Source: an uncultured Elusimicrobia bacterium (GTDB lineage: Bacteria; Elusimicrobiota; Elusimicrobia; 2-01-FULL-59-12). From it: a DNA stretch of 64,000 nucleotides. Below are positions 21,789-53,177 of this stretch, in pieces. The stretch is from contig OY969767.1 in the NCBI GenBank assembly GCA_963702895.1, forward strand, positions 128,001-192,000, given 5' to 3'. Under the pieces are notes generated by a model. It was given only the letters and a program-made list of their open reading frames with translations. It searched no databases and was not told where the DNA came from. Numbering within the stretch: position 1 is the first letter of the stretch; each line of letters starts with the position of its first letter. Both the position numbers and the translations under genes were made by a program.

Positions 21789-21962
21789 ATGCAAAATCTG
21801 AGGCGAAAAGACGGTCAGGGGCTGATCGAATACATCCTGATCGTGGGACTGATGGGCGTCCTGGCGATCGCGGCGATCAACGCCTTGAGCGCTAAAACGC
21901 AAGCCGGTTACCGTGCGGCGACACGAGAGCTTGGCGATGAATTCTCCAAGATGGGGAGTTAG
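21789..21962 (+). CDS. flp: Flp family type IVb pilin (57 aa; below the ORF-track cutoff)
   Basis: Hand translation MQNLRRKDG|QGLIEYILIVGLMGVLAIAAINALS...; G|xxxxEY prepilin motif; purine-rich RBS. Confidence 0.9.
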   Translation: MQNLRRKDGQGLIEYILIVGLMGVLAIAAINALSAKTQAGYRAATRELGDEFSKMGS

Positions 21963-21966
21963 GATC

Positions 21967-22899
21967 ATGGCCCGGGTCGCCGCAAAGCGGCGAACCTCGC
22001 CTTTCGGGCGGGCCGCGGCCGGCATGTGCTTATGGATGTGCTGCTGCGTTCCGGCGGCCCGCCCAGCCTATGGCGAGCTCAGCCCTCCGGCGGCCCGGGT
22101 CGCCGCGCTTGAGCGAACCTCGCCCTCCCGGCGGGCCGCGTCTGCGCCTCTGCCGCTCATTCAAATCAGCGTTGAGGTGGTGGAAGTGGACGAGCAAAAG
22201 GCGAGTCACTTAGGTATTGAGTGGCTGAGCCAGCTCCGCGTGGAGGAAACGTCGATTCCCTCCTTTCTTGGTGTTGGGACGTGGCAAAGAGGCAAGCTCT
22301 ATGCGGACCTCCACTTTCTGGAAGAAGCCGGAGCCGCGGACCTCTTGGCGAACCCCAAACTCGTGGCGCGGGATGGCGCGAGCGCGACCTTTCATGCCGG
22401 CGGCGAGATACCTTACGCCACCTCCTCCTCCGACAAGGCGGTGAGCGTCGAATTTAAACCGTATGGCGTCGCACTCCAAGTGAAGCCGCACGTCAACGAG
22501 GCGTCTCTCATCGAGCTCGCGGTGGAGGCCGAAGTCAGCAGTCCCGACACGCAAAGCGGCGTGAGCCTCTCCGGAAATGTCGTTCCTGGAATCCGTTCCC
22601 GTAAAGCCAGCACGCAACTGACGCTAGCCCCCGACACCACCCTCACCATGGCCGGGCTCCTCCAGAACGACAGGGAATGGAAAAGGGAAGGGGTGCCGGT
22701 GCTCATGCACATTCCCCTCCTCAAATATTTCTTCAGCCACAAAGTCAAAATCATGCGCAAGACGTCCATCGTGATTTTCGTGACCCCCAGGATTTTAGAT
22801 GGGCCCAAAGCTCCTGTGGCGTTACAGCAGCCGCAGGATCAGGAGTCGGACCTCTTGCGCATCGAACATGAGAAAGATATGGGGACCTTCCGTGGTTAA
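21967..22899 (+). CDS. Short secretin (RcpA/CpaC-like)
   Basis: LANPKLV, GGEIP, EFKPYGVALQVKP, GVPVLMHIPLL, IVIFVTPRI. Confidence 0.85.
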   Translation: MARVAAKRRTSPFGRAAAGMCLWMCCCVPAARPAYGELSPPAARVAALERTSPSRRAASAPLPLIQISVEVVEVDEQKASHLGIEWLSQLRVEETSIPSFLGVGTWQRGKLYADLHFLEEAGAADLLANPKLVARDGASATFHAGGEIPYATSSSDKAVSVEFKPYGVALQVKPHVNEASLIELAVEAEVSSPDTQSGVSLSGNVVPGIRSRKASTQLTLAPDTTLTMAGLLQNDREWKREGVPVLMHIPLLKYFFSHKVKIMRKTSIVIFVTPRILDGPKAPVALQQPQDQESDLLRIEHEKDMGTFRG

Positions 22900-23434
22900 C
22901 CGAAATTCAAAAAGTCGTCATCCCGGCGCGTCGTTAGCCGGGATCCATCATGATAGACCCCGGCTAACAATCCGCCGGGGTGACGGCCATGAGACTTGCG
23001 GAAGAGACACTCGGTTATCTTCGGGGCAGGCACTGGTCGAGGTCGCCCTCGTCTTGCCCTGCGTCTGCCTGGGGATCTTTATGGCACTGCAGCTTATCCT
23101 TTACTGCCACAACATGATCGAACTCCAGAGAATGGCCCAGGTCATGTCAGACCGACAAAGCTATAGCGCGACAAAGTCTGTGCGGGACTACTCGAGGTTC
23201 CACGCGCTTTGGGGAAAGGTGGGATTGGGAAAGCTGAGAGTCGAACATTGGCAGCCCCGTCCCTGGAGGCCGTTCCGGGGGATCTCCACCGTCCAGCATC
23301 CCGGCCTGTTTTACCGTGTTCAGGTAGGAGCGACGCTTTTCCCCGGCCATGGTTTCAGCCGGGTCTTGGGATGGGCCAGCAAGACAGGATACGCCGAGGG
23401 CTATCTTGAGCCTCCCCTGCCCCAAGAGAGCTGA
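22892..23434 (+). CDS. TadE-like pseudopilin with a REP-B in-frame in its leader
   Basis: G|QALVEVALVLP motif; no in-frame start between the REP and this motif, GTG 22892 overlaps the secretin stop. Confidence 0.75.
   Translation: MVNRNSKSRHPGASLAGIHHDRPRLTIRRGDGHETCGRDTRLSSGQALVEVALVLPCVCLGIFMALQLILYCHNMIELQRMAQVMSDRQSYSATKSVRDYSRFHALWGKVGLGKLRVEHWQPRPWRPFRGISTVQHPGLFYRVQVGATLFPGHGFSRVLGWASKTGYAEGYLEPPLPQES
22917..22984. repeat. REP-B doublet (intragenic)
   Basis: GTCATCCCGG..CCGGGATCCAT CATG ATAGACCCCGG..CCGGGGTGAC. Confidence 0.9.
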
Positions 23435-23436
23435 CC

Positions 23437-24174
23437 ATGCGTTACGGGAATGATCGCGGGCAGCTCCTCTTTCCGGTTCTGGGTGTTCTTTTCTTCTTTG
23501 GCATGTTCTGGGTGGCCTATGTTCTTTGGTGCAGGCAGCTCTACATCAAAATGCGCGTGGACGCGGTGGCTGATCTGGTCGCCTTGAGCGCCGCCAGGCA
23601 ACAAGCCCAGATGCTCAATGAGATCGGCACCCTCCAAATGCTGGAGAACATGCTTCTTCCGGAGATCAAGGGGTACGGGATCATGCCAATCAATTCGAAA
23701 TCGAGCTTTGAGGGGCTCAATGGAGTCCTCCGGTACACCAAAAAGAGCTACGGGCCGCGCGTGCTGGCCGTCGCGAACAGCATCGCGCGGCACAATGGAG
23801 GCGCTCGCGCTCTGCCTTCTCCCTATGGGGCGTCGCTCGCCGAGCTCGTCGATCCACGCCTGGGCCCGGAGCCCGTGATCGTGGTTTATTTCGCGGGCAG
23901 CTGGCCTGTGGAGGCGAAATATTATGAGGAAGCCTTCTATGCCCGGCAGTGGTCCCCCGGCAAGCTCAAGGCACAGCCGGATCATAAGAGCGACTGGCTG
24001 GTTTGTCTGGACAAGATCTGCAGCGAGGCTCGGGCGCGCTTGTGGCTCGACGTGGATGAACGCTCGGCGCTTCATAACGGCGGGTTCCCAAGCCGGCAAG
24101 CTTCCTGGCTGAGGAAGATCGGAATCCAGTGCTTTTACCCCCAATTCAACGCGCGGTTATGGCCAAAGCGATGA
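23437..24174 (+). CDS. TadG-like pilus assembly protein
   Basis: RG|QLL hydrophobic N-terminus, ADLVALSAA motif; Tad operon context. Confidence 0.65.
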   Translation: MRYGNDRGQLLFPVLGVLFFFGMFWVAYVLWCRQLYIKMRVDAVADLVALSAARQQAQMLNEIGTLQMLENMLLPEIKGYGIMPINSKSSFEGLNGVLRYTKKSYGPRVLAVANSIARHNGGARALPSPYGASLAELVDPRLGPEPVIVVYFAGSWPVEAKYYEEAFYARQWSPGKLKAQPDHKSDWLVCLDKICSEARARLWLDVDERSALHNGGFPSRQASWLRKIGIQCFYPQFNARLWPKR

Positions 24175-24307
24175 TGAACCGGGAGTCTTCTGTCGGGCCG
24201 GTTTTGTCGTCTGTGGTCAGTGTTCTAGTTTGTGCCGTCATCCCGGCGGACGCCGGGATCCATCATTTTTGTCGAACAATGATAGACCCCGGCTTTCGCC
24301 TATTAGA

Positions 24308-24486
24308 CTTTTCTCGAGTCTTTGTAGACTCTAGAAGAAGACACCGACAAGAATGGAATAAGTCTAACTTTCGCCAAGGTGAAAACCATACCCCGGTAAA
24401 GACCCCATTCTTTCGTGATCCAAAGCTAGATAGAAGTGATGTCATAAAAACCCTTAATAGGCAAAGCTCGCATCACGAATGTCGGC
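24308..24486 (+). ncRNA. Putative bridge RNA of IS110-B (ends approximate)
   Basis: 5' hairpin GAGTCT/AGACTC; stems AAGAATGG/CCATTCTT, TTCGTGAT/ATCACGAA, CCGACA/TGTCGG; guides CTTTCGCC, ACCCCGG, ATAGAAGT, TAATAG. Confidence 0.82.
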
Positions 24487-24505
24487 ACTTACAAAAAGGA
24501 GCCTT

Positions 24506-25531
24506 ATGAACCCACCTCTCCATTACATAGGCGTTGATATCGCCGATCAAACCTTCAGCGCAACACATTACAGCTCAGCCGAACAAAAGTATTCCAAACA
24601 TCAGACGCTCGCCAATACACCCGCCGGCTTTGAGGAATTCGAAGCCTGGTTTAAGAAACGCGGAGTCGATTCCACCAATACCGTGGTCTGCATGGAAGCC
24701 ACCGGTGTTTATGCGGAGCAGCTCTGCTACTGGCTCTGTGCCAAAGGCTATCCGGTGTCGGTGGAGGCGCCGCATAAAACCAAACGCGCCTTTCACCCCC
24801 TGGGAGCCAAAAGCGACCCCATCGATAGCCGCCAGCTCGCCGAATATGCCTGGCGCTTTTTCGATCAACTCGCGTTCTGGAAACCCTCGGAAGCCTTGAT
24901 CGAACAAGTCCGTGTTCTTCTGACGACGCGCGAGCAGCTGACCGGCCAGATGACCGCCAATCAAAATGCCTTGTCGGCCATCAGCCGGAAAGTCGTTCGC
25001 ACGATCCTCGCCGAACAAAGCTTCCTGGACACCATCCGCCATCTCAAAGAACAGATCAAAAAAATCGATCAGGCCTTGGATCAACTGATCTCAAACCACC
25101 CCACCATTGGCCCCATGGTGAGCTTGCTGCTCACCATCCCTGGGGTGGGCCGACTCTTGACGGCCCATTTGATGGTCATCAGCCAAGGCTTTACGCGATC
25201 CCTGGAACCCCGCCGCATCGCCTCGTATTTGGGCATGTGCCCACTCGAACACTCCAGCGGAACTTCCGTGCGCAAGAATGCAAGCTCTCGCGGGATCGGT
25301 CCGGACATCATCCGCAAGCTATTGCACCTGGCAGCCCGATCCCTTCGCACACATCATCAGCAGTTCAGGCACTACTTTGAAAGAAAAGTACAAGCCGGAA
25401 AAGCCAAACGCTTGGCGCTCAACAACATTGCCAACAAACTCTTGCGCATTATCTGTGCCGTACTGCGCACAAAGTCACCGTATCTTGCTGACTATAGGTC
25501 AGTCAATCCTCGGATCCTAAAAAATGCTTGA
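24506..25531 (+). CDS. IS110-family DEDD transposase/recombinase (unrelated to element A)
   Basis: GVDIAD, MEATG, KSDPIDS, PGVG, HSSG; AAGGAG RBS. Confidence 0.95.
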   Translation: MNPPLHYIGVDIADQTFSATHYSSAEQKYSKHQTLANTPAGFEEFEAWFKKRGVDSTNTVVCMEATGVYAEQLCYWLCAKGYPVSVEAPHKTKRAFHPLGAKSDPIDSRQLAEYAWRFFDQLAFWKPSEALIEQVRVLLTTREQLTGQMTANQNALSAISRKVVRTILAEQSFLDTIRHLKEQIKKIDQALDQLISNHPTIGPMVSLLLTIPGVGRLLTAHLMVISQGFTRSLEPRRIASYLGMCPLEHSSGTSVRKNASSRGIGPDIIRKLLHLAARSLRTHHQQFRHYFERKVQAGKAKRLALNNIANKLLRIICAVLRTKSPYLADYRSVNPRILKNA

Positions 25532-25574
25532 CCGAGGTCATAGAAATCGGGGTGACGTCAATAGAAGATTTCGG

Positions 25575-26018
25575 ATGAATGCTCGCGGGCAGGCGCTTAT
25601 CGAAGCCGCGGCCTTGTTCCTGGCGCTGTCGGTCCTCTTGGGCGGGCTTGCCGGCTTCACTCAGTGGTTTGCCATCAGGCAAAAGCTGCTCCTGGCGGCC
25701 AAAGAGGGAGCCCTGCTCTACAGCTCCGGACATTGGCGGAGAACGGAAGTGGAAGCGCGCATGCGTAATTTTTTGGTCACGGGCGCCCCTGCCTTGAACC
25801 CGCGGGGGATCACCGTTTCGCTGCGCCCCTTGTCCGGTTTCATGGCCTGGCTCGGGCAATTTGACGAGTGCGTCGTGACCTACGCTCCTCCTGGGGGCTG
25901 GCACGCCCTGCTTGGCGCCGGCCGCTCCGTGTCCGAACGTTTTGTGGTGAAGCACGCGCCTCCCTATTGGTCCTCCCACGCGTCACGGGCAGGCCCGGCG
26001 GTCCGCTATGGCGAATAA
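25575..26018 (+). CDS. TadE-like pseudopilin (original start probably 24171, separated by IS110-B)
   Basis: RG|QALIE motif, AAKEGA; in frame with 24171-24300 once the IS is removed. Confidence 0.75.
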   Translation: MNARGQALIEAAALFLALSVLLGGLAGFTQWFAIRQKLLLAAKEGALLYSSGHWRRTEVEARMRNFLVTGAPALNPRGITVSLRPLSGFMAWLGQFDECVVTYAPPGGWHALLGAGRSVSERFVVKHAPPYWSSHASRAGPAVRYGE

Positions 26019-26772
26019 ACGGCTTCTCGTGCGTATCGGTCTGGCGACAGCGATACTCGTCGCGGGCGCCAGTCTCATGAGGGATGCCGTTCCTCGCTTC
26101 TGGCGCCCCTCAAGCTCTGATCCGGGAGACATCACCTTGGTCCTGGTGGCAGACCATTACATCCCCGCCTTCACCCCGCTTCGCACGGTCCATGTCCGTG
26201 CCCAGGAATACCCTAAGGCACTTGTGCCGCCGGGCGCGCTGCGCGACCGGCAGGAACTTCACAATGAAAATGGTCAGACGCGTTTCACGTCGGCCATCGC
26301 GATACCGGAGCATCACCCCATCACCCGGGCGATGCTCTCGGACGCCTCCAGGGAAGACGGCTTGGGATCATTTCTCTGGCCGGGCAAAGTCGCCGTATCT
26401 TTTGAAATCGACCGTGCCCACGGGGTGGGCGGCTGGATCAGGCCCGGGGACACGGTCGCCCTGTTCAGGTCGAGCCGCGTGCTCCTGGACGGGGCTCGAC
26501 CTGTGAAAGAGGGCTCACGGCTTCTCTTTCCTTCATTATTTGTGATTGCCGTGGACCGCGAGCGCGTGGGACAGAACCGGGAGAAGGCGCCGGAGGCCTC
26601 CGCGGAACCGTTCGGCGCCTCCATGGGAGCTCTCCCGCAAGAGTCCAGTGTCCTGACGGTTCTGGCCAACCCCGCGGAGGCCTCCGGCCTTATCGCGGCG
26701 CGCGAGGAGGGGGCGATCAGCGTGGCGCTGCGGGCGCCCGGAGATGAGGTGCCATGGCGCGAGGGAAGATAA
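26008..26772 (+). CDS. cpaB: Flp pilus assembly protein CpaB/RcpC
   Basis: SAF-like VLVADHYIPAFT, GVGGWIRPGDTV, ISVALR. Confidence 0.85.
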   Translation: MANKRLLVRIGLATAILVAGASLMRDAVPRFWRPSSSDPGDITLVLVADHYIPAFTPLRTVHVRAQEYPKALVPPGALRDRQELHNENGQTRFTSAIAIPEHHPITRAMLSDASREDGLGSFLWPGKVAVSFEIDRAHGVGGWIRPGDTVALFRSSRVLLDGARPVKEGSRLLFPSLFVIAVDRERVGQNREKAPEASAEPFGASMGALPQESSVLTVLANPAEASGLIAAREEGAISVALRAPGDEVPWREGR

Positions 26773-28535
26773 TACCGATATGGTCAGACCTCCCGGACCA
26801 GGAGCGACGAAACTTCGCTCAGGCGCTCGCGGGTGTTTTCCATGAAGAGCATCAGGACGTTCTGCTCGTGGACTGTGGGCATCCCGAACCACATCCCGAT
26901 CCGGCGGAGTGGGCACCTAAGTTCAAGGCCCTTGCGCCGGCACTCCTGCGCAACTATCTGGAAGCCGGGGACCACAAGGGAGGCTGCTTAAAGCTGTCAC
27001 ACCTTCCGGGGAAAGTTCAAGGCCTTGAACTTTTTGAGCTTCTGGCGCGCGCCTACGACTGGGTGTTGGTCTTGGCGCCTGCGGGTGCGGCCTCCCAGGC
27101 GGGCCCGCTTTTTGAGGCTGCCAGCTTTGTGGTCTGGCTCGGACAGGCCGGTCCTGACCTCGCCTCGCGCTATGAAGCGTTTCTGGGCCGTCTATCGCCC
27201 TCGCATTTCCCCCATGCGTACGTTCTTCCCGTGGAAGGGCCTGACCGGAGCATAGGCTCTCATCCAAATGAAGCGTGCCTTAAGGAGTTGGCCCGAAGAC
27301 TGGAAGATCAGCCTGGTGTCGCCAGGCCCAAAGGGGATTCGCCCTTGACCGGCGCGCCCTCGCCGGACCAGGCTGTGGATCAACTCAAAGCGCGAGCGCA
27401 GCCGGAGCTCATGAAGACCCTCGAGGATACAACAACCCTGGAAGCTGACACGGCACGGAAGACCATCGAGCTCTGCCTTGCCAGGGACGCCTCCCTGCCG
27501 GCTTCGCCCGCTCAAAGGGGGATGATCCTCGAACTCGTCATGCAGGACGTCCTGGGTCTTGGGCCGCTCGATCCCTTGCTCAAGGACCCGGAGGTTTCCG
27601 AGGTGATGGTGAATGGCCCGGAGCGCGTCTACGTTGAAAAGAAAGGGAGGCTTGTGCCGACCGATGCCCGCTTCTCATCGGACAAGCAGCTGCGCACGGT
27701 GATTGACCGGATTGTGGCTCCCATCGGGCGCCGCGTGGATGAGAGCATGCCGCTCTGCGACGCGCGGCTCGCGGACGGCTCCCGGGTGAACATCGTTCTT
27801 CCGCCGCTCTCACTCGACGGGCCGACCTTGACCATCCGGAAGTTCTCGGCGCGCGCGCTGGGCCTCGCGGAGCTCGAGCGCCTGGGATCGCTGAGCCCCG
27901 CGATGGCCGATTTCCTTTTGCGCGCGGTGCGCGCGCGCCGCAACATCGTGGTCTCGGGCGGAACCGGCAGCGGAAAGACCACGCTCCTGAATGCCCTCTC
28001 GGGTGCCATCCCGGACGAGGAGCGGATCGTCACCATCGAAGACGCCGCCGAGCTCAAGCTCCAGAAGCCCCATGTGGTGCGTCTGGAGAGCCGGCCTCCC
28101 AACGCCGAAGGGGAAGGCGCGATTCCCATCCGGCGCCTTGTGATCAACGCCCTGCGCATGCGGCCGGACCGGATTGTCGTGGGGGAATGCCGCGGCGGGG
28201 AGGCGCTCGATATGCTGCAGGCCATGAACACGGGGCACGACGGCTCCATGACCACCCTGCACGCCAATTCGCCCCGGGACGCTCTGGGGCGGCTCGAGAC
28301 CCTCGTGCTCATGGCCGGGCTTGACTTGCCGGTCCGGGTCGTGCGCGAACAGATCCGGAGTGCCATCCACCTCCTTGTCCAGCAGGCCAGGCTTGCGGAT
28401 GGCTCACGGAAGGTCACCTCGATCACGGAAGTTACGGGCATGGAAGGGGAGGTGCTCACCACCCAGGAGCTCTACGGCTTCAAGTCGGGCTGCTTTGAGG
28501 CGACGGGCGTCGTCTCCGGAATGGTGCCGTCATGA
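26754..28535 (+). CDS. cpaF: CpaF/TadA assembly ATPase with an N-terminal degenerate CpaE/TadZ-like extension
   Basis: GGTGSGKTT, TIEDAAEL, LRMRPDRIVVGECRG, MNTGHDGS. Confidence 0.92.
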   Translation: MARGKIIPIWSDLPDQERRNFAQALAGVFHEEHQDVLLVDCGHPEPHPDPAEWAPKFKALAPALLRNYLEAGDHKGGCLKLSHLPGKVQGLELFELLARAYDWVLVLAPAGAASQAGPLFEAASFVVWLGQAGPDLASRYEAFLGRLSPSHFPHAYVLPVEGPDRSIGSHPNEACLKELARRLEDQPGVARPKGDSPLTGAPSPDQAVDQLKARAQPELMKTLEDTTTLEADTARKTIELCLARDASLPASPAQRGMILELVMQDVLGLGPLDPLLKDPEVSEVMVNGPERVYVEKKGRLVPTDARFSSDKQLRTVIDRIVAPIGRRVDESMPLCDARLADGSRVNIVLPPLSLDGPTLTIRKFSARALGLAELERLGSLSPAMADFLLRAVRARRNIVVSGGTGSGKTTLLNALSGAIPDEERIVTIEDAAELKLQKPHVVRLESRPPNAEGEGAIPIRRLVINALRMRPDRIVVGECRGGEALDMLQAMNTGHDGSMTTLHANSPRDALGRLETLVLMAGLDLPVRVVREQIRSAIHLLVQQARLADGSRKVTSITEVTGMEGEVLTTQELYGFKSGCFEATGVVSGMVPS

Positions 28536-29155
28536 TCATTTTGGCCGCGCTCGGAATGATCAGTCTCCTGATTCCATCCCTATTGAAGAAGATGCGGACA
28601 GAACAGCGGCGGCTCCTCCTGGCGAGCCAGCTCCACCAGGCGCTGGAGAACATGGTCCACGCGCTGCGCACAGGCCTCGGGCTCCAGCAGGCGCTCGAAG
28701 CCGCGGCGAGGGAGGGCGACCAGCCGCTTGCCGGCGAGTGGCAATCTCTGCTGAAGTCCGTCCGGCTGGGCGCGCCCTGGCCGGAAGCGCTGGATCAACT
28801 GGGCAAGCGGGTCGATCTTGCGGAGATGAAGTGGTTTGTGACCGCCGTTGGGATCACGCGCCAGACCGGAGGGCCGCTCACCCAGGTCCTTGAGACTTTG
28901 GCGGACACCCTGGAGGAGCGGCTCGTGCTGCGAGAGAAGATCAAGGCCCTGACCGCTCAAGGGAAAGCGTCCGGGGCCGTGCTCGCCGCGCTACCCTTCC
29001 TGATTCTGGGCGCCTTGCGGCTGCTTGTGCCGGAGCTCGTCCGCCCGATGTTCATGACCGCTACGGGACAGCTTCTGGTCGCCGGCGTCATCGTGTCGGT
29101 GGCGGTGGGGGGGCTGATCATGTGGAAAATCGTTCACATCCGGGTAGAGTCATGA
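28532..29155 (+). CDS. tadB: TadB (T2SS F domain) membrane protein
   Basis: LRTGLGL, QTGGPL, ALTAQG; ATGA overlap with cpaF. Confidence 0.85.
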   Translation: MIILAALGMISLLIPSLLKKMRTEQRRLLLASQLHQALENMVHALRTGLGLQQALEAAAREGDQPLAGEWQSLLKSVRLGAPWPEALDQLGKRVDLAEMKWFVTAVGITRQTGGPLTQVLETLADTLEERLVLREKIKALTAQGKASGAVLAALPFLILGALRLLVPELVRPMFMTATGQLLVAGVIVSVAVGGLIMWKIVHIRVES

Positions 29156-29817
29156 AGCATTTGTGGGATCTAGCGCTAATCCGAATCGCTCAATTGAGAC
29201 GTCACCCCGGTGAAAACCGGGGTCCAGAAGCCGACAGATCATGGATCCCGGCTTTCGCCGGGATGACGGAACGAAAAAATCCCGAAATTTCAGTCGACAA
29301 GCCACGTTTAGCTACACTTTTTCGGCTGTGCGTGTGCCGGAAATGGAGAGAGAAGAAAAGAAACGAGGATATCCTCGTGATGCTTCCGGAGGCGCTCGAC
29401 CTCATGACTGTGGTGATCCAGGCGGGGCTCGACTTCCAGGTGGCCCTGGCGAGGTATCTCGAGTTCTCAGCGGGAGGCGCACTGCGCGAGGAATTCGCGA
29501 AGGTCCAGCGGGCGCTCCAAACGGGCTCCTCACGCGCTGACGCCCTGCGGGCCCTGGCGGCCGGCGCCTCGTGCCCGGAGTTGCGGCAAACCGCCAAAGC
29601 CGTGCTCCAGGCCATGGAGTTGGGGTCCGGCCTCACGCCCATCCTTCGGGCACAGTCGCGGCTTCTTCGAAAGAAGCGGGCCCTGGCGGCCGAAAAGACG
29701 GCGGCCCTGGCGCCGCTCAAGCTCCTGTTCCCCTTGTTTGTCTTTATCTTCCCGACGATCTTTGTGGTGCTCTTCGGGCCCGTCGTGCTTGCCGTGATGA
29801 AGGGAAGCACGGGATGA
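29152..29817 (+). CDS. tadC: TadC (T2SS F domain) with a REP-B in-frame near the N-terminus
   Basis: LPEALDL, AGLDF, KLLFPLFVFIFP; ATGA overlap with tadB. Confidence 0.82.
   Translation: MKHLWDLALIRIAQLRRHPGENRGPEADRSWIPAFAGMTERKNPEISVDKPRLATLFRLCVCRKWREKKRNEDILVMLPEALDLMTVVIQAGLDFQVALARYLEFSAGGALREEFAKVQRALQTGSSRADALRALAAGASCPELRQTAKAVLQAMELGSGLTPILRAQSRLLRKKRALAAEKTAALAPLKLLFPLFVFIFPTIFVVLFGPVVLAVMKGSTG
29201..29267. repeat. REP-B doublet (intragenic, encodes ..WIPAFAGMT..)
   Basis: GTCACCCCGGTGAAAACCGGGGTC..GGATCCCGGCTTTCGCCGGGATGAC. Confidence 0.9.
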
Positions 29818-30668
29818 AAGCCGGCCGGAGCATCCGTCTTGGCGTCTTCATCTGTCTGGGCGTCGCGTTCCTGGTTGTTCTTCACCTTTCCCAGGTGAAG
29901 GCGGGGCTCCTGCAGCTGGAACAGGCGGCCGCGAGGCAGCTGGCGGGAGGCTTCATGCCGCTCCTCACGAAAGCGCATCAGAATCAGGACGACCTTTCGA
30001 TCACGGAACTGCTGAATGCTCTTTCAAAGGCGCCTGGTGTTCAAAGCGCTCGTGTCCTGGAGGGAGGGGCAAAGATCATAAGGGATCCTCCCCGCTACGC
30101 CTTTGCGCTCAAAGGCCGTGACCGGACCTGGGGAAACCTCGAGCTTTGCATATCGGCCCACACCCGAAAAAAGATGGTGCAAAAGCAGCTCCTCGTGAGC
30201 CTCATCCTCTATGGGCTTCTGGGGGGAGCCCTTTATGGGTATCTCGAGCGATCGGACATCCATCGATCGCGATGGGAGGGCAAACGGACGGAGCTCGAGG
30301 CTCAGCGGGCGAAGGAGACGCGCCTTCGAGAAGCCGCGGAAGGCCTGGCCAGGCAGGCAAGCCTGCGCACGAGCGCTGTCCTGCGGGACGTCGTGGCGTT
30401 GATCGAAAAGCCCGTGATCCTTCTGGATGAGCGGCAACGCGTGGCGGCAATGAGCCGCCCGGCTCTTGAGCTCATGCGCCAAGCTTCACTTGAGTCCATG
30501 TTGAACAAGTCCTGGCTTGAGGCGCCACTCCTCGGCGAATGCGGGAAAGCGATTGAGGACGCCCTACGGGACCCGCGCAGCACACAGTCGGTCCCCGTGA
30601 TGCCGGGAGGCTTGACGCTCAGGCTGAGGGCCATCGGTGATGATTGGGTGGAAATAAGGATAGAATAG
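29814..30668 (+). CDS. Membrane protein: two TM helices, coiled coil, PAS-like C-terminus
   Basis: Hydrophobic segments; PVILLDERQRVAAMSRPA PAS-like motif; ATGA overlap with tadC. Confidence 0.6.
   Translation: MKAGRSIRLGVFICLGVAFLVVLHLSQVKAGLLQLEQAAARQLAGGFMPLLTKAHQNQDDLSITELLNALSKAPGVQSARVLEGGAKIIRDPPRYAFALKGRDRTWGNLELCISAHTRKKMVQKQLLVSLILYGLLGGALYGYLERSDIHRSRWEGKRTELEAQRAKETRLREAAEGLARQASLRTSAVLRDVVALIEKPVILLDERQRVAAMSRPALELMRQASLESMLNKSWLEAPLLGECGKAIEDALRDPRSTQSVPVMPGGLTLRLRAIGDDWVEIRIE

Positions 30669-51995: not shown

Positions 51996-53177
<1,182 letters not shown>

What the first reader, a model, noticed from the sequence alone, without database searches (positions are those of the whole stretch)
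24293..25556. IS110-B: a second, unrelated bridge RNA with near-perfect guides for REP-B and a non-CT core
Seen: the empty site is GCTTTCGCC|GGGGT. The 205-nt left end has a 5' hairpin, then stem AAGAATGG/CCATTCTT enclosing CTTTCGCC (24368-24375, exact left target), a GGT-GAAA-ACC hairpin and ACCCCGG (24390-24396, exact reverse complement of CCGGGGT). A second stem TTCGTGAT/ATCACGAA encloses ATAGAAGT (24430-24437, versus right end ATAGAAAT, one wobble) and TAATAG (24455-24460, reverse complement of CTATTA at the left end). CCGACA/TGTCGG closes both arms into a multibranch fold. Junctions are CC| and TC|, so only one C is shared. The circle would put TTGACC 18 bp from TAGACT. Inference: a bridge recombinase with a longer right-target guide, a different fold and a single-base or mismatched core.
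Basis: partly seen in the sequence, partly recalled or inferred. Interest (0 to 1): 0.85.

Follow-up and report, generated by a model that had tools for sequence, protein, structure and literature searches.

The report
RNA-guided IS110 element, one-base shared core
This is an intact jumping gene of the known IS110 "bridge RNA" kind that aims itself at a small repeated hairpin, unusual mainly because the crossover spot in its own ends (TC) shares only one base with the spot it inserts into (CC).

Summary
Window 24301-25548 is a 1248-bp IS110-family element. The genome holds five copies, identical at all 1248 bases, each at CTTTCGCC|GGGGT in a REP hairpin. Another 37 identical sites are empty.

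The 205-nt left end encodes a two-loop bridge RNA. I tested this on 80 metagenomic relatives (44-59% protein identity), of which 75 sequences, counting the window's, could be used.
- All four guide segments covary with the elements' own flanks and ends. No label shuffle reached the observed match.
- 22 of 28 predicted RNA pairs show compensatory changes.
- A promoter split across the right-end/left-end junction is present in 60 of 60.

The clade's core is TC, not the CT of IS621, IS622 and ISPpu10. Here the target core is CC and the donor core TC, so only the second C is shared. Six relatives show the same CC/TC discordance. Only this element reads the target core as CC with both target guides.

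The mechanism is that of IS621 and is already described. The TC core, the one-base shared core and a helix closing both loops are variant features. No RNA or circle evidence was obtainable. The predicted next target is not favoured.

The parts
24287..24300 (+). Left half of the REP target hairpin (CCCCGGC-TTTC-GCC). The left target plus target core is GCTTTCG-CC at 24292-24300.
   Evidence: Same left flank in 5 of 5 copies; 37 uninterrupted sites.
24301..25548 (+). IS110-family insertion sequence, 1248 bp.
   Evidence: Five copies identical at all 1248 positions, with the same boundaries.
24304..24309 (+). -10 box TAGACT of the promoter rebuilt when the right end joins the left end.
   Evidence: TAGACT or TAGATT lies 17-18 nt from a TTGAC-type box in 60 of 60 relatives with both ends. 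Transcription was not tested.
24316..24331 (+). 5' hairpin GAGTCT-TTGT-AGACTC.
   Evidence: Minimum-energy fold. Not tested in relatives.
24344..24349 (+). Closing helix, 5' strand CCGACA. It pairs with 24480-24485.
   Evidence: In 75 sequences the cognate helix averages 7.04 bp, against 4.96 when the 3' strands are dealt to other sequences.
24350..24356 (+). Outer stem of the target-binding loop, 5' strand. It pairs with 24405-24411.
   Evidence: RNAalifold columns 9-17/71-80, with compensatory changes at 8 of 9 pairs.
24362..24365 (+). Inner stem GUCU. It pairs with AGAC at 24400-24403 and closes the target-binding loop.
   Evidence: Nearly invariant pairs in 75 sequences.
24367..24375 (+). 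Left target guide ACUUUCGCC. The last 8 nt equal the top strand of the left target including core CC.
   Evidence: Direct match. LTG-flank covariation in 51 distinct sites: 345 of 459 positions, against 229.5 shuffled.
24378..24387 (+). Hairpin inside the target-binding loop.
   Evidence: Columns 39-41/51-53, compensatory changes at all 3 pairs.
24390..24396 (+). Right target guide ACCCC-GG, the reverse complement of CC-GGGGT.
   Evidence: RTG-flank covariation: 55 of 66 elements match 5 of 5 positions. For 26 distinct sites, 121 of 130 against 53.4 shuffled, 0 of 10000 shuffles as good.
24397..24398 (+). Candidate handshake guide UA of the target loop. U can pair with donor position 7.
   Evidence: Assigned by position, by analogy with IS621 (PMC11208158, section 12). 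Relatives carry AU with ...ATTC or ...GTTC donors and UU with ...AAATC donors. Inference.
24413..24419 (+). Outer stem of the donor-binding loop, 5' strand. It pairs with 24472-24478.
   Evidence: Columns 83-88/165-171, compensatory changes at all 6 pairs.
24424..24427 (+). Inner stem AGCU. It pairs with AGCU at 24465-24468 and closes the donor-binding loop.
   Evidence: Columns 93-96/158-161.
24430..24437 (+). Left donor guide AUAGAAGU. It equals right-end positions 1-8 (ATAGAAAT) with one G.T wobble. The next base, G, cannot pair at core position 9.
   Evidence: LDG-end covariation: 16 distinct ends, 117 of 128 against 83.7 shuffled, 0 of 5000 as good.
24455..24461 (+). Right donor guide UAAUA-GG. 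It pairs with (T/C)C-TATTA at the left end, by G.T wobble with donor T8 and by G-C with target C8.
   Evidence: Direct match. In relatives the RDG reads TC + the first 5 nt of the left end exactly in 41 of 66.
24462..24463 (+). Candidate handshake guide CA of the donor loop. C can pair with target position 7 (G).
   Evidence: Assigned by position, by analogy with IS621. Inference.
24480..24485 (+). Closing helix, 3' strand TGTCGG.
24506..25531 (+). Recombinase gene, 341 aa, preceded by AAGGAG at 24496-24501.
   Evidence: PF01548 (78.7 bits) + PF02371 (62 bits); NF033542 at 193.5 bits, cut-off 140; IS621 structure 8wt6 at E 3.5e-28. Start codon and ribosome site are conserved in relatives.
25528..25533 (+). 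-35 box TTGACC of the junction promoter. It overlaps the stop codon.
25540..25548 (+). Left donor plus donor core: ATAGAAA-TC, the right terminus.
   Evidence: The right end stops in TC in 69 of 69 elements where it was found.
25549..25556 (+). Right target GGGGT(GAC), the rest of the REP hairpin's 3' arm.
   Evidence: Same right flank in 5 of 5 copies.

Best explanation
An active IS110-group insertion sequence whose 205-nt left end encodes a bridge RNA built on the IS621 plan.

How it works (inferred from IS621 unless marked):
- Joining the right end to the left end, as in a circular intermediate, puts TTGACC 18 nt from TAGACT. This would drive an RNA that starts near 24316.
- The RNA has a 5' hairpin and two internal loops held together by a closing helix.
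- The target-binding loop reads both strands of the REP site. LTG ACUUUCGCC reads the bottom strand. RTG ACCCCGG reads the top strand.
- The donor-binding loop reads the element's joined ends. LDG AUAGAAGU reads the bottom strand. RDG UAAUAGG reads the top strand.
- The DEDD/serine recombinase exchanges strands just after position 9, giving ...CGCC|TATTAG... and ...AAATC|GGGGT....

The core. This clade uses TC, not CT. In this element the target has CC and the donor TC, so only C9 is common. Each bottom-strand guide matches its own substrate at position 8. Both top-strand guides carry G there, and G pairs with C8 of the target and wobbles with T8 of the donor. Position 8 therefore behaves like a further handshake position rather than a shared core base.

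Shown here: element boundaries, copies, empty sites, guide-flank covariation, helices, promoter motifs, catalytic residues.
Inferred: transcription, circle formation, the strand-exchange chemistry, and the role of wobble at position 8.

The confidence of 0.9 is for the element being an IS110-type bridge-RNA system aimed at this REP site. I put the specific reading of position 8 (wobble, handshake-like) at about 0.5.
For: Protein. PF01548 + PF02371; NF033542 'IS110 family RNA-guided transposase' at 193.5 bits against a cut-off of 140. It aligns over its full length to IS621 (8wt6, E 3.5e-28) and ISCro4 (9t56, E 1.7e-26). D11, E64, D104 and D107 and the S251-G252 motif are invariant, and S254 nearly so, in 39 relatives.

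Activity and target. Five copies are identical at all 1248 positions, all at the same site and in the same orientation. 5 of 42 perfect sites are occupied, 0 of 58 one-mismatch sites and 0 of 165 two-mismatch sites.

Guides covary with flanks and ends. 80 loci were fetched. Four lacked upstream DNA and two duplicated another left end, which left 74 loci plus the window's own sequence, 75 in all.
- RTG: 55 of 66 match 5 of 5, 10 match 4, 1 matches 3. For 26 distinct sites, 121 of 130 against a shuffled mean of 53.4 (maximum 78), 0 of 10000 as good.
- LTG: 51 distinct sites, 345 of 459 against 229.5, 0 of 5000.
- LDG: 16 distinct ends, 117 of 128 against 83.7, 0 of 5000.
- RDG: 41 of 66 read TC + left end exactly.

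RNA helices. 22 of 28 RNAalifold pairs show compensatory changes. The closing helix averages 7.04 bp against 4.96 for non-cognate strands.

Promoter. The split promoter is present in 60 of 60 relatives.

Core.
- The right end stops in TC in 69 of 69.
- The RTG reads TC in 74 of 75 and CC only in the window.
- The left junction is TC in 59 of 66 and CC in 7 of 66: the window, L038, L039, L042, L043, L045 and L111.
- A tandem repeat beside L038 shows its empty site also has CC.
- IS621 residue N84, said to read the G opposite core C8 (PMC11208158, passage), aligns with Ala88 here (my count on the alignment); the clade majority consensus has A in that ...VEAPHK... stretch.
Against: - No RNA run holds the element and only contigs could be laid, so there is no evidence for the transcript, its ends or a circle junction.
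- One low-depth contig of run X2 (depth 2.36) is a close relative with five adjacent substitutions inside the LTG (24367-24371), yet it sits beside the same left flank. Either the distal LTG positions matter little or that copy is defective.
- LTG-flank matching in relatives is loose: 23 of 60 match fewer than 7 of 9 positions.
- The central hairpin of the donor loop, clear in relatives, is nearly absent in this copy.
- Only one of two candidate handshake bases pairs in each loop.
- In 25 of 66 relatives my RDG parse is inexact, in part because of extra bases in the loop.
- The six other CC/TC elements keep A, not G, in the RTG. G at position 8 is therefore not required for a discordant core.
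Confidence: 0.9

Rival explanations
1. Target and donor really share a two-base core at the moment of insertion: the excised form carries CC. The T at the right terminus would not be part of the crossover.
For: The RDG reads CC-TATTA without any wobble. The left junction carries CC.
Against: Conservative exchange of an LD-CC-RD donor with an LT-CC-RT target would leave CC at the right junction. All 5 copies have TC there, as do 69 of 69 elements in the clade. The LDG carries U at position 8, matching a T:A pair.
Confidence: 0.08
2. The recombinase finds the site mainly through the shape of the REP hairpin. The left-end complementarity would be secondary or fortuitous.
For: The insertion point lies in the 3' arm of a 7-bp hairpin. 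Relatives mostly insert in palindromic repeats ending ...TGAC. A preprint on ISPpu10 reports that a target stem-loop adds to recognition (10.64898/2026.03.19.712850, passages).
Against: Guides track 26 different right-target 5-mers and 51 different left-target 9-mers. Some of these targets have no evident hairpin. In the window both target guides arose together in 0 of 20000 shuffles. A structural contribution on top of pairing is not excluded.
Confidence: 0.07
3. The element is a recent but now inert set of copies spread by duplication of the surrounding repeats or by recombination, not by its own transposition.
For: Three of the five copies share about 60 nt of similar left flank. No circle or RNA evidence was found.
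Against: The right flanks differ beyond GGGGTGACG in all five copies, and two left flanks are of another repeat type. The reading frame, catalytic residues, guides and promoter boxes are intact and identical in all five.
Confidence: 0.05

Closest known systems
IS621 of Escherichia coli (IS110 group), with its bridge RNA. Sources: Durrant et al. 2024, PMC11208160 (passages and supplementary table 1, part 1); Hiraizumi et al. 2024, PMC11208158 (passages and section 12).
   Same: - Two-domain DEDD/serine recombinase.
- Long left end and short right end.
- Inserts into a REP.
- Promoter rebuilt across the joined ends.
- RNA with a 5' hairpin, a target loop (LTG, hairpin, RTG, 2-nt handshake guide) and a donor loop (LDG, hairpin, RDG, handshake guide).
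- LTG and LDG equal the top strand; RTG and RDG are its reverse complement.
- By my reading of the IS621 RNA and junction in supplementary table 1, IS621's LDG also fails to match core position 9, as here.
   Different: - Core TC (clade) or CC/TC (this element) instead of CT. For IS621 orthologues the second base T is reported as almost invariant and the first as less conserved.
- Natural RTG of 7 bp instead of 4.
- A helix closes both loops into a three-way junction. By eye I saw no counterpart in the printed IS621 RNA; I did not fold it.
- N84 of IS621 aligns with Ala here.
ISPpu10 of Pseudomonas putida (preprint 10.64898/2026.03.19.712850, passages).
   Same: An IS110 element aimed at many identical REP copies. 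It has a junction promoter and a bridge RNA, with wobble and mismatch tolerated in natural guide pairings.
   Different: ISPpu10 is described with a CT core. Its dependence on the target stem-loop was tested there and not here.
ISEc21 and the seekRNA of IS110-type elements (Siddiquee et al. 2024, PMC11187229, passages).
   Same: The upstream non-coding region encodes the guide RNA. There is no target duplication. One copy of any apparent duplication belongs to the element.
   Different: IS1111-type elements carry the RNA downstream of the gene. Here the right end is only 17 nt, so the element is of the IS110 type.
Survey of 32,190 predicted bridge RNAs with 86 covariance models (preprint 10.64898/2026.10.21.760802; section 2.4 and methods passages).
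   Same: Diverse bridge RNA folds, longer guides than IS621 and cores of variable length are already recognised there.
   Different: [quoted passage not shown] I could not see its supplements, so I cannot tell whether this clade is among its clusters.

Membership tests
IS110 family, IS110 group | Recombinase with an N-terminal DEDD RuvC-like domain and a C-terminal Tnp domain with a conserved serine. | tested here: met
   PF01548 + PF02371; NF033542 above its cut-off. D11, E64, D104, D107, S251 and G252 are invariant and S254 nearly invariant in 39 relatives. They align to the IS621 catalytic residues.
IS110 family, IS110 group | No terminal inverted repeats and no target duplication; one fixed target sequence and orientation. 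| tested here: met
   5 of 5 copies sit at the same site. Only one C is common to left flank and right terminus.
IS110 family, IS110 group | Long non-coding left end upstream of the gene and a short right end (IS1111 group is the reverse). | tested here: met
   The left end is 205 nt and the right end 17 nt after the stop codon.
Bridge-RNA recombination system (IS621 type) | [quoted passage not shown] | tested here: met
   Covariation of LTG, RTG, LDG and RDG with flanks and ends. Helices are supported by compensatory changes.
Bridge-RNA recombination system (IS621 type) | An identical core dinucleotide (CT) in target and donor, read by all four guides. | tested here: not met
   The target has CC (37 empty sites) and the donor TC, so one base is shared. 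The LDG does not pair at position 9. The clade core is TC.
Bridge-RNA recombination system (IS621 type) | A sigma-70-type promoter rebuilt across the right-end/left-end junction. | tested here: met
   TTGACC, 18 nt, TAGACT in the window. Equivalent boxes at 17-18 nt in 60 of 60 relatives. This is a sequence test only.
Bridge-RNA recombination system (IS621 type) | A circular intermediate, and an RNA that is expressed and bound by the recombinase. | not testable with these tools
   No RNA holder was listed and only contigs could be laid.
IS1111 group / 3' seekRNA | Guide RNA in a long right end, with subterminal inverted repeats. | tested here: not met
   The right end is 17 nt and the guides lie in the left end.

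The most novel reading that the evidence does not exclude
Natural bridge recombinases do not need identical cores. In this clade only the base before the top-strand cut (C9) must be common to target and donor. Position 8 works as a third handshake position. Elements either mismatch it before exchange and match it after (six relatives with RTG ...GA on a CC target), or read both pyrimidines through G (this element: RTG and RDG both ...GG). If so, the 'matching core' rule used to choose sites for bridge editing could be relaxed, and TC/CC-core orthologues would widen the set of addressable sites.
Probability: 0.45. Interest if true: 0.55.

Novelty: new variant of a known kind. Interest (0 to 1): 0.4.

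Why it matters
The finding adds an apparently active, well-delimited bridge-recombinase orthologue from an uncultured lineage. The guide map is complete and supported by natural retargeting in dozens of relatives.

Four features bear on the design rules of bridge editing:
- a TC/CC core in place of CT;
- a natural 7-bp right-target guide;
- a closing helix that ties the two loops together;
- target and donor cores that differ at the first position.

The published selection of genomic sites that I read filters for matching cores (preprint 10.1101/2025.05.14.653916, passages). Natural elements that ignore that rule at position 8 would make the rule testable. For the host, 37 free perfect sites and five identical copies point to an element still able to spread. 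One copy sits between genes of a tad pilus locus.

Tried and rejected
- Rfam: no family at gathering score in the whole window. Only three chance-level hits in the left end, E 3.2-5.7.
- A single-protein scan of genome contigs gave one distant locus at 30% identity, which I did not use.
- Whole-genome searches found no relative at E <= 1e-30 in 60 related genomes, nor at E <= 1e-80 in 400 other genomes of the phylum. No second genome with copies and empty sites could therefore be studied.
- Sequencing runs: no RNA holder was listed. The best DNA holder had 0.46 of the words.
- Laying contigs of X1, X2, X3 and X5 gave no circle junction. The one 'skip' joint (24297 to 25548 with two other letters, side 23) is another REP copy, not an empty allele of this locus.
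- First call with a wrong frame; corrected.
- My first guess that relatives L038-L045 begin at TGTTAGCAT was wrong. Their left end starts further upstream at TATTAGACT.
- Three empty REP copies carry TC at the core (CTTTCGTCGGGGT). I considered them as footprints of the alternative resolution of a position-8 heteroduplex, but they are no more frequent than other one-base variants.
- Literature: no paper in the library holds both 'TC core' and 'IS110'. One paper holds 'bridge recombinase', 'core', 'mismatch' and 'wobble' together, and the passages I read do not treat discordant cores.
- The scan's own index holds no look-alike of this protein.
Full report
**What is there.**
Window 24301-25548 (+) is a 1248-bp insertion sequence. 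Its single gene (24506-25531, 341 aa, AAGGAG six bases upstream) carries the two IS110 domains PF01548 and PF02371. It scores 193.5 bits on NCBIfam NF033542, 'IS110 family RNA-guided transposase', cut-off 140. It aligns over its full length to the solved bridge recombinases IS621 (8wt6, E 3.5e-28) and ISCro4 (9t56, E 1.7e-26). The residues aligned with the IS621 catalytic set (D11, E64, D104, D107, the S251-G252 motif) are invariant in an alignment of 39 relatives, and S254 is nearly so.

The genome (one contig, 2.72 Mb) holds five copies, all 1248 bp and identical at every position.

**Target.**
All five copies lie between ...CCGGCTTTCGCC and GGGGTGACG.... The uninterrupted 13-mer CTTTCGCCGGGGT occurs 37 more times, always inside the hairpin CCCCGGC-TTTC-GCCGGGG of a REP-like repeat. 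The insertion point is in the 3' arm.
- Sites: 42 perfect, 58 one-mismatch and 165 two-mismatch.
- Occupied: 5, 0 and 0 respectively.
- By my arithmetic, five random hits among the 100 best sites would all be perfect with probability about 0.011.

It lies in the N-terminal part of an ORF with a T2SSF (TadC-like) domain, ahead of the domain.

**The RNA, tested on relatives.**
The protein has 1704 database relatives at E <= 1e-20 among 4794 candidates. The nearest are 87, 85 and 65% identical, mostly on contigs of about 1.3-1.5 kb.

A profile scan of metagenome contigs returned 80 loci at 44-59% identity. Four lacked upstream DNA (L037, L060, L101, L107). Two had a left end identical to another locus (L041, L116). 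That left 74 loci, or 75 sequences with the window's own.

All 75 share two anchor pairs that form short inner stems: GUCU...AGAC, and AGCU...AGCU or a variant of it. Each closes an internal loop.

RNAalifold on the 75 sequences predicts 28 pairs, of which 22 show compensatory changes. These include the outer stems of both loops and the hairpins inside them. A further helix joins the sequence before the first loop to that after the second (CCGACA/TGTCGG in the window). It averages 7.04 bp in cognate sequences against 4.96 (sd 0.13) when the 3' strands are exchanged among sequences.

The anchor pattern occurs in this genome only in the five copies.

**Guides.**
*RTG.* The seven bases that sit three bases before AGAC are the reverse complement of the right-terminal dinucleotide plus the first five flank bases.
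- Over the five flank positions, 55 of 66 elements match 5 of 5, 10 match 4 and 1 matches 3.
- With one element per distinct flank 5-mer (26), 121 of 130 positions match. Shuffled mean is 53.4, maximum 78, and 0 of 10000 shuffles were as good.

*LTG.* The bases after GUCUA equal the left flank.
- 51 distinct sites give 345 of 459 positions against 229.5, with 0 of 5000 shuffles as good.
- The match is looser: 23 of 60 have fewer than 7 of 9.

*Donor loop.*
- The 8 bases two to three bases after the inner stem equal right-end positions 1-8: 16 distinct ends, 117 of 128 against 83.7, 0 of 5000.
- The bases before the 3' inner stem are the reverse complement of TC plus the first five left-end bases, exactly so in 41 of 66.

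*In the window* the four segments are ACUUUCGCC, ACCCCGG, AUAGAAGU and UAAUAGG. Both target guides together arose in 0 of 20000 shuffles of the left end.

*Promoter.* A -35 box at the stop codon and a -10 box four bases into the left end stand 17-18 nt apart across the joined ends in 60 of 60 relatives and in the window.

This is the layout described for IS621: LTG and LDG read the bottom strand, RTG and RDG read the top strand, and two handshake bases follow the core-reading bases (PMC11208160, passages; PMC11208158, section 12).

**The core.**
- The right end stops in TC in 69 of 69 elements where it was found.
- The left junction is TC in 59 of 66 and CC in 7 of 66.
- The RTG reads TC in 74 of 75.

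So the clade's shared core is TC. The papers I read give CT for IS621, IS622 and ISPpu10. For IS621 orthologues the second base T is called almost invariant.

The window element is one of the seven discordant cases. The target has CC (37 empty sites) and the right terminus has TC. Under conservative exchange after position 9, a T at the right junction and a C at the left junction mean that donor and target differed at position 8 when they recombined.

L038 gives independent support. Its flank is a tandem repeat that shows an empty site with CC.

The window is the only element whose RTG reads CC (...GG). Its RDG also ends in GG, which pairs with target C8 and wobbles with donor T8. The other six discordant elements keep ...GA in the RTG. 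That mismatches the target before exchange and matches the incoming donor strand after it, the behaviour described for handshake guides.

The LDG does not pair at position 9 in any consistent way. The next base is A 28, U 17, G 14 and C 10 of 69. By my reading of the IS621 RNA printed in supplementary table 1, the same holds for IS621.

IS621 N84, reported to contact the G opposite core C8, aligns with Ala88 here (my count on the alignment); the clade majority consensus has A in that ...VEAPHK... stretch.

**How it most likely works.**
The mechanism follows IS621, with these steps inferred and not shown:
1. Excision or copy-out of a form with joined ends.
2. Transcription of the RNA from the rebuilt promoter.
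3. Two recombinase dimers on the two loops.
4. Top-strand cleavage after C9 and exchange.
5. Resolution.

In IS621 the bottom strands are cut four bases away, so positions 6-7 are already heteroduplex (section 12; the position mapping is my deduction from the numbering). A preprint reports that IS621 mainly moves a single strand (10.64898/2026.08.31.748434, abstract only). Either way a difference at position 8 is the same kind of event as the normal differences at 6-7. It would be settled in favour of the top strand, which is what all five copies show.

**Against, and limits.**
- No transcript or circle evidence could be obtained.
- A low-depth contig in run X2 is a near relative with five adjacent changes inside the LTG, yet it has the same left flank. 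That does not fit strict LTG pairing.
- The donor loop's inner hairpin is degenerate in this copy.
- Only one of two candidate handshake bases pairs per loop.
- All relatives are metagenome fragments, so their activity is unknown.
- Supplements of the bioRxiv survey of 32,190 bridge RNAs were closed. That survey may already contain this clade.

**Verdict.**
The element is a member of the known bridge-RNA class by mechanism. It departs from the characterised systems in four ways: core sequence, a core of only one shared base, a natural 7-bp right-target guide and a closing helix. I rate it a new variant of a known kind, interest 0.4.

An earlier, unchecked note of this scan (e1-7943145) describes an AT/GT first-position core mismatch in another genome. 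The phenomenon may therefore be recurrent.

Noticed in passing
L042:601-1900 (metagenome locus), against window 24287-24300 + 25549-25556: Relative L042 (57% protein identity) sits at GTCACCCC|GGCGAAAGCCGGGG. This is the exact reverse complement of this element's 22-nt REP target, cut at the same phosphodiester bond. The same hairpin is therefore used in the opposite orientation by a retargeted relative.
   Followed up: partly
window 24367-24371, seen in a contig of run X2: A close relative (7 differences in 177 nt) has five adjacent substitutions exactly in the left target guide, yet it lies beside the same left flank. It may be a natural reprogramming event, or a sign that distal LTG positions are dispensable.
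   Followed up: no
window 51996-53018 (-): A second IS110-family gene (PF01548 + PF02371), only 24% identical to this one. Its surroundings show no similarity to this element's left or right end.
   Followed up: partly
window 24225-24300 and 25549-25560: The target repeat is bipartite. An upstream hairpin (GTCATCCCGG-CGGACG-CCGGGAT) and the targeted hairpin are bracketed by GTCA...TGAC. The genome holds 42 perfect, 58 one-mismatch and 165 two-mismatch copies of the 13-mer.
   Followed up: partly
window 21913-30668: The element lies in an intergenic repeat of a tad/Flp pilus locus: secretin, TadE-like protein, [IS], RcpC/CpaB, a T2SSE ATPase and two T2SSF proteins. It sits 26 nt upstream of an ATG at 25575, so polar or promoter effects on the downstream genes are possible.
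   Followed up: no
L038:1300-1476: The right flank of L038 is a tandem repeat of its own target. It supplies an empty site with CC at the core next to the occupied one.
   Followed up: partly
genome G000, three sites: Three empty REP copies read CTTTCGTCGGGGT, that is, with the donor-type TC core. They cannot be told apart from ordinary point variants of the repeat.
   Followed up: no
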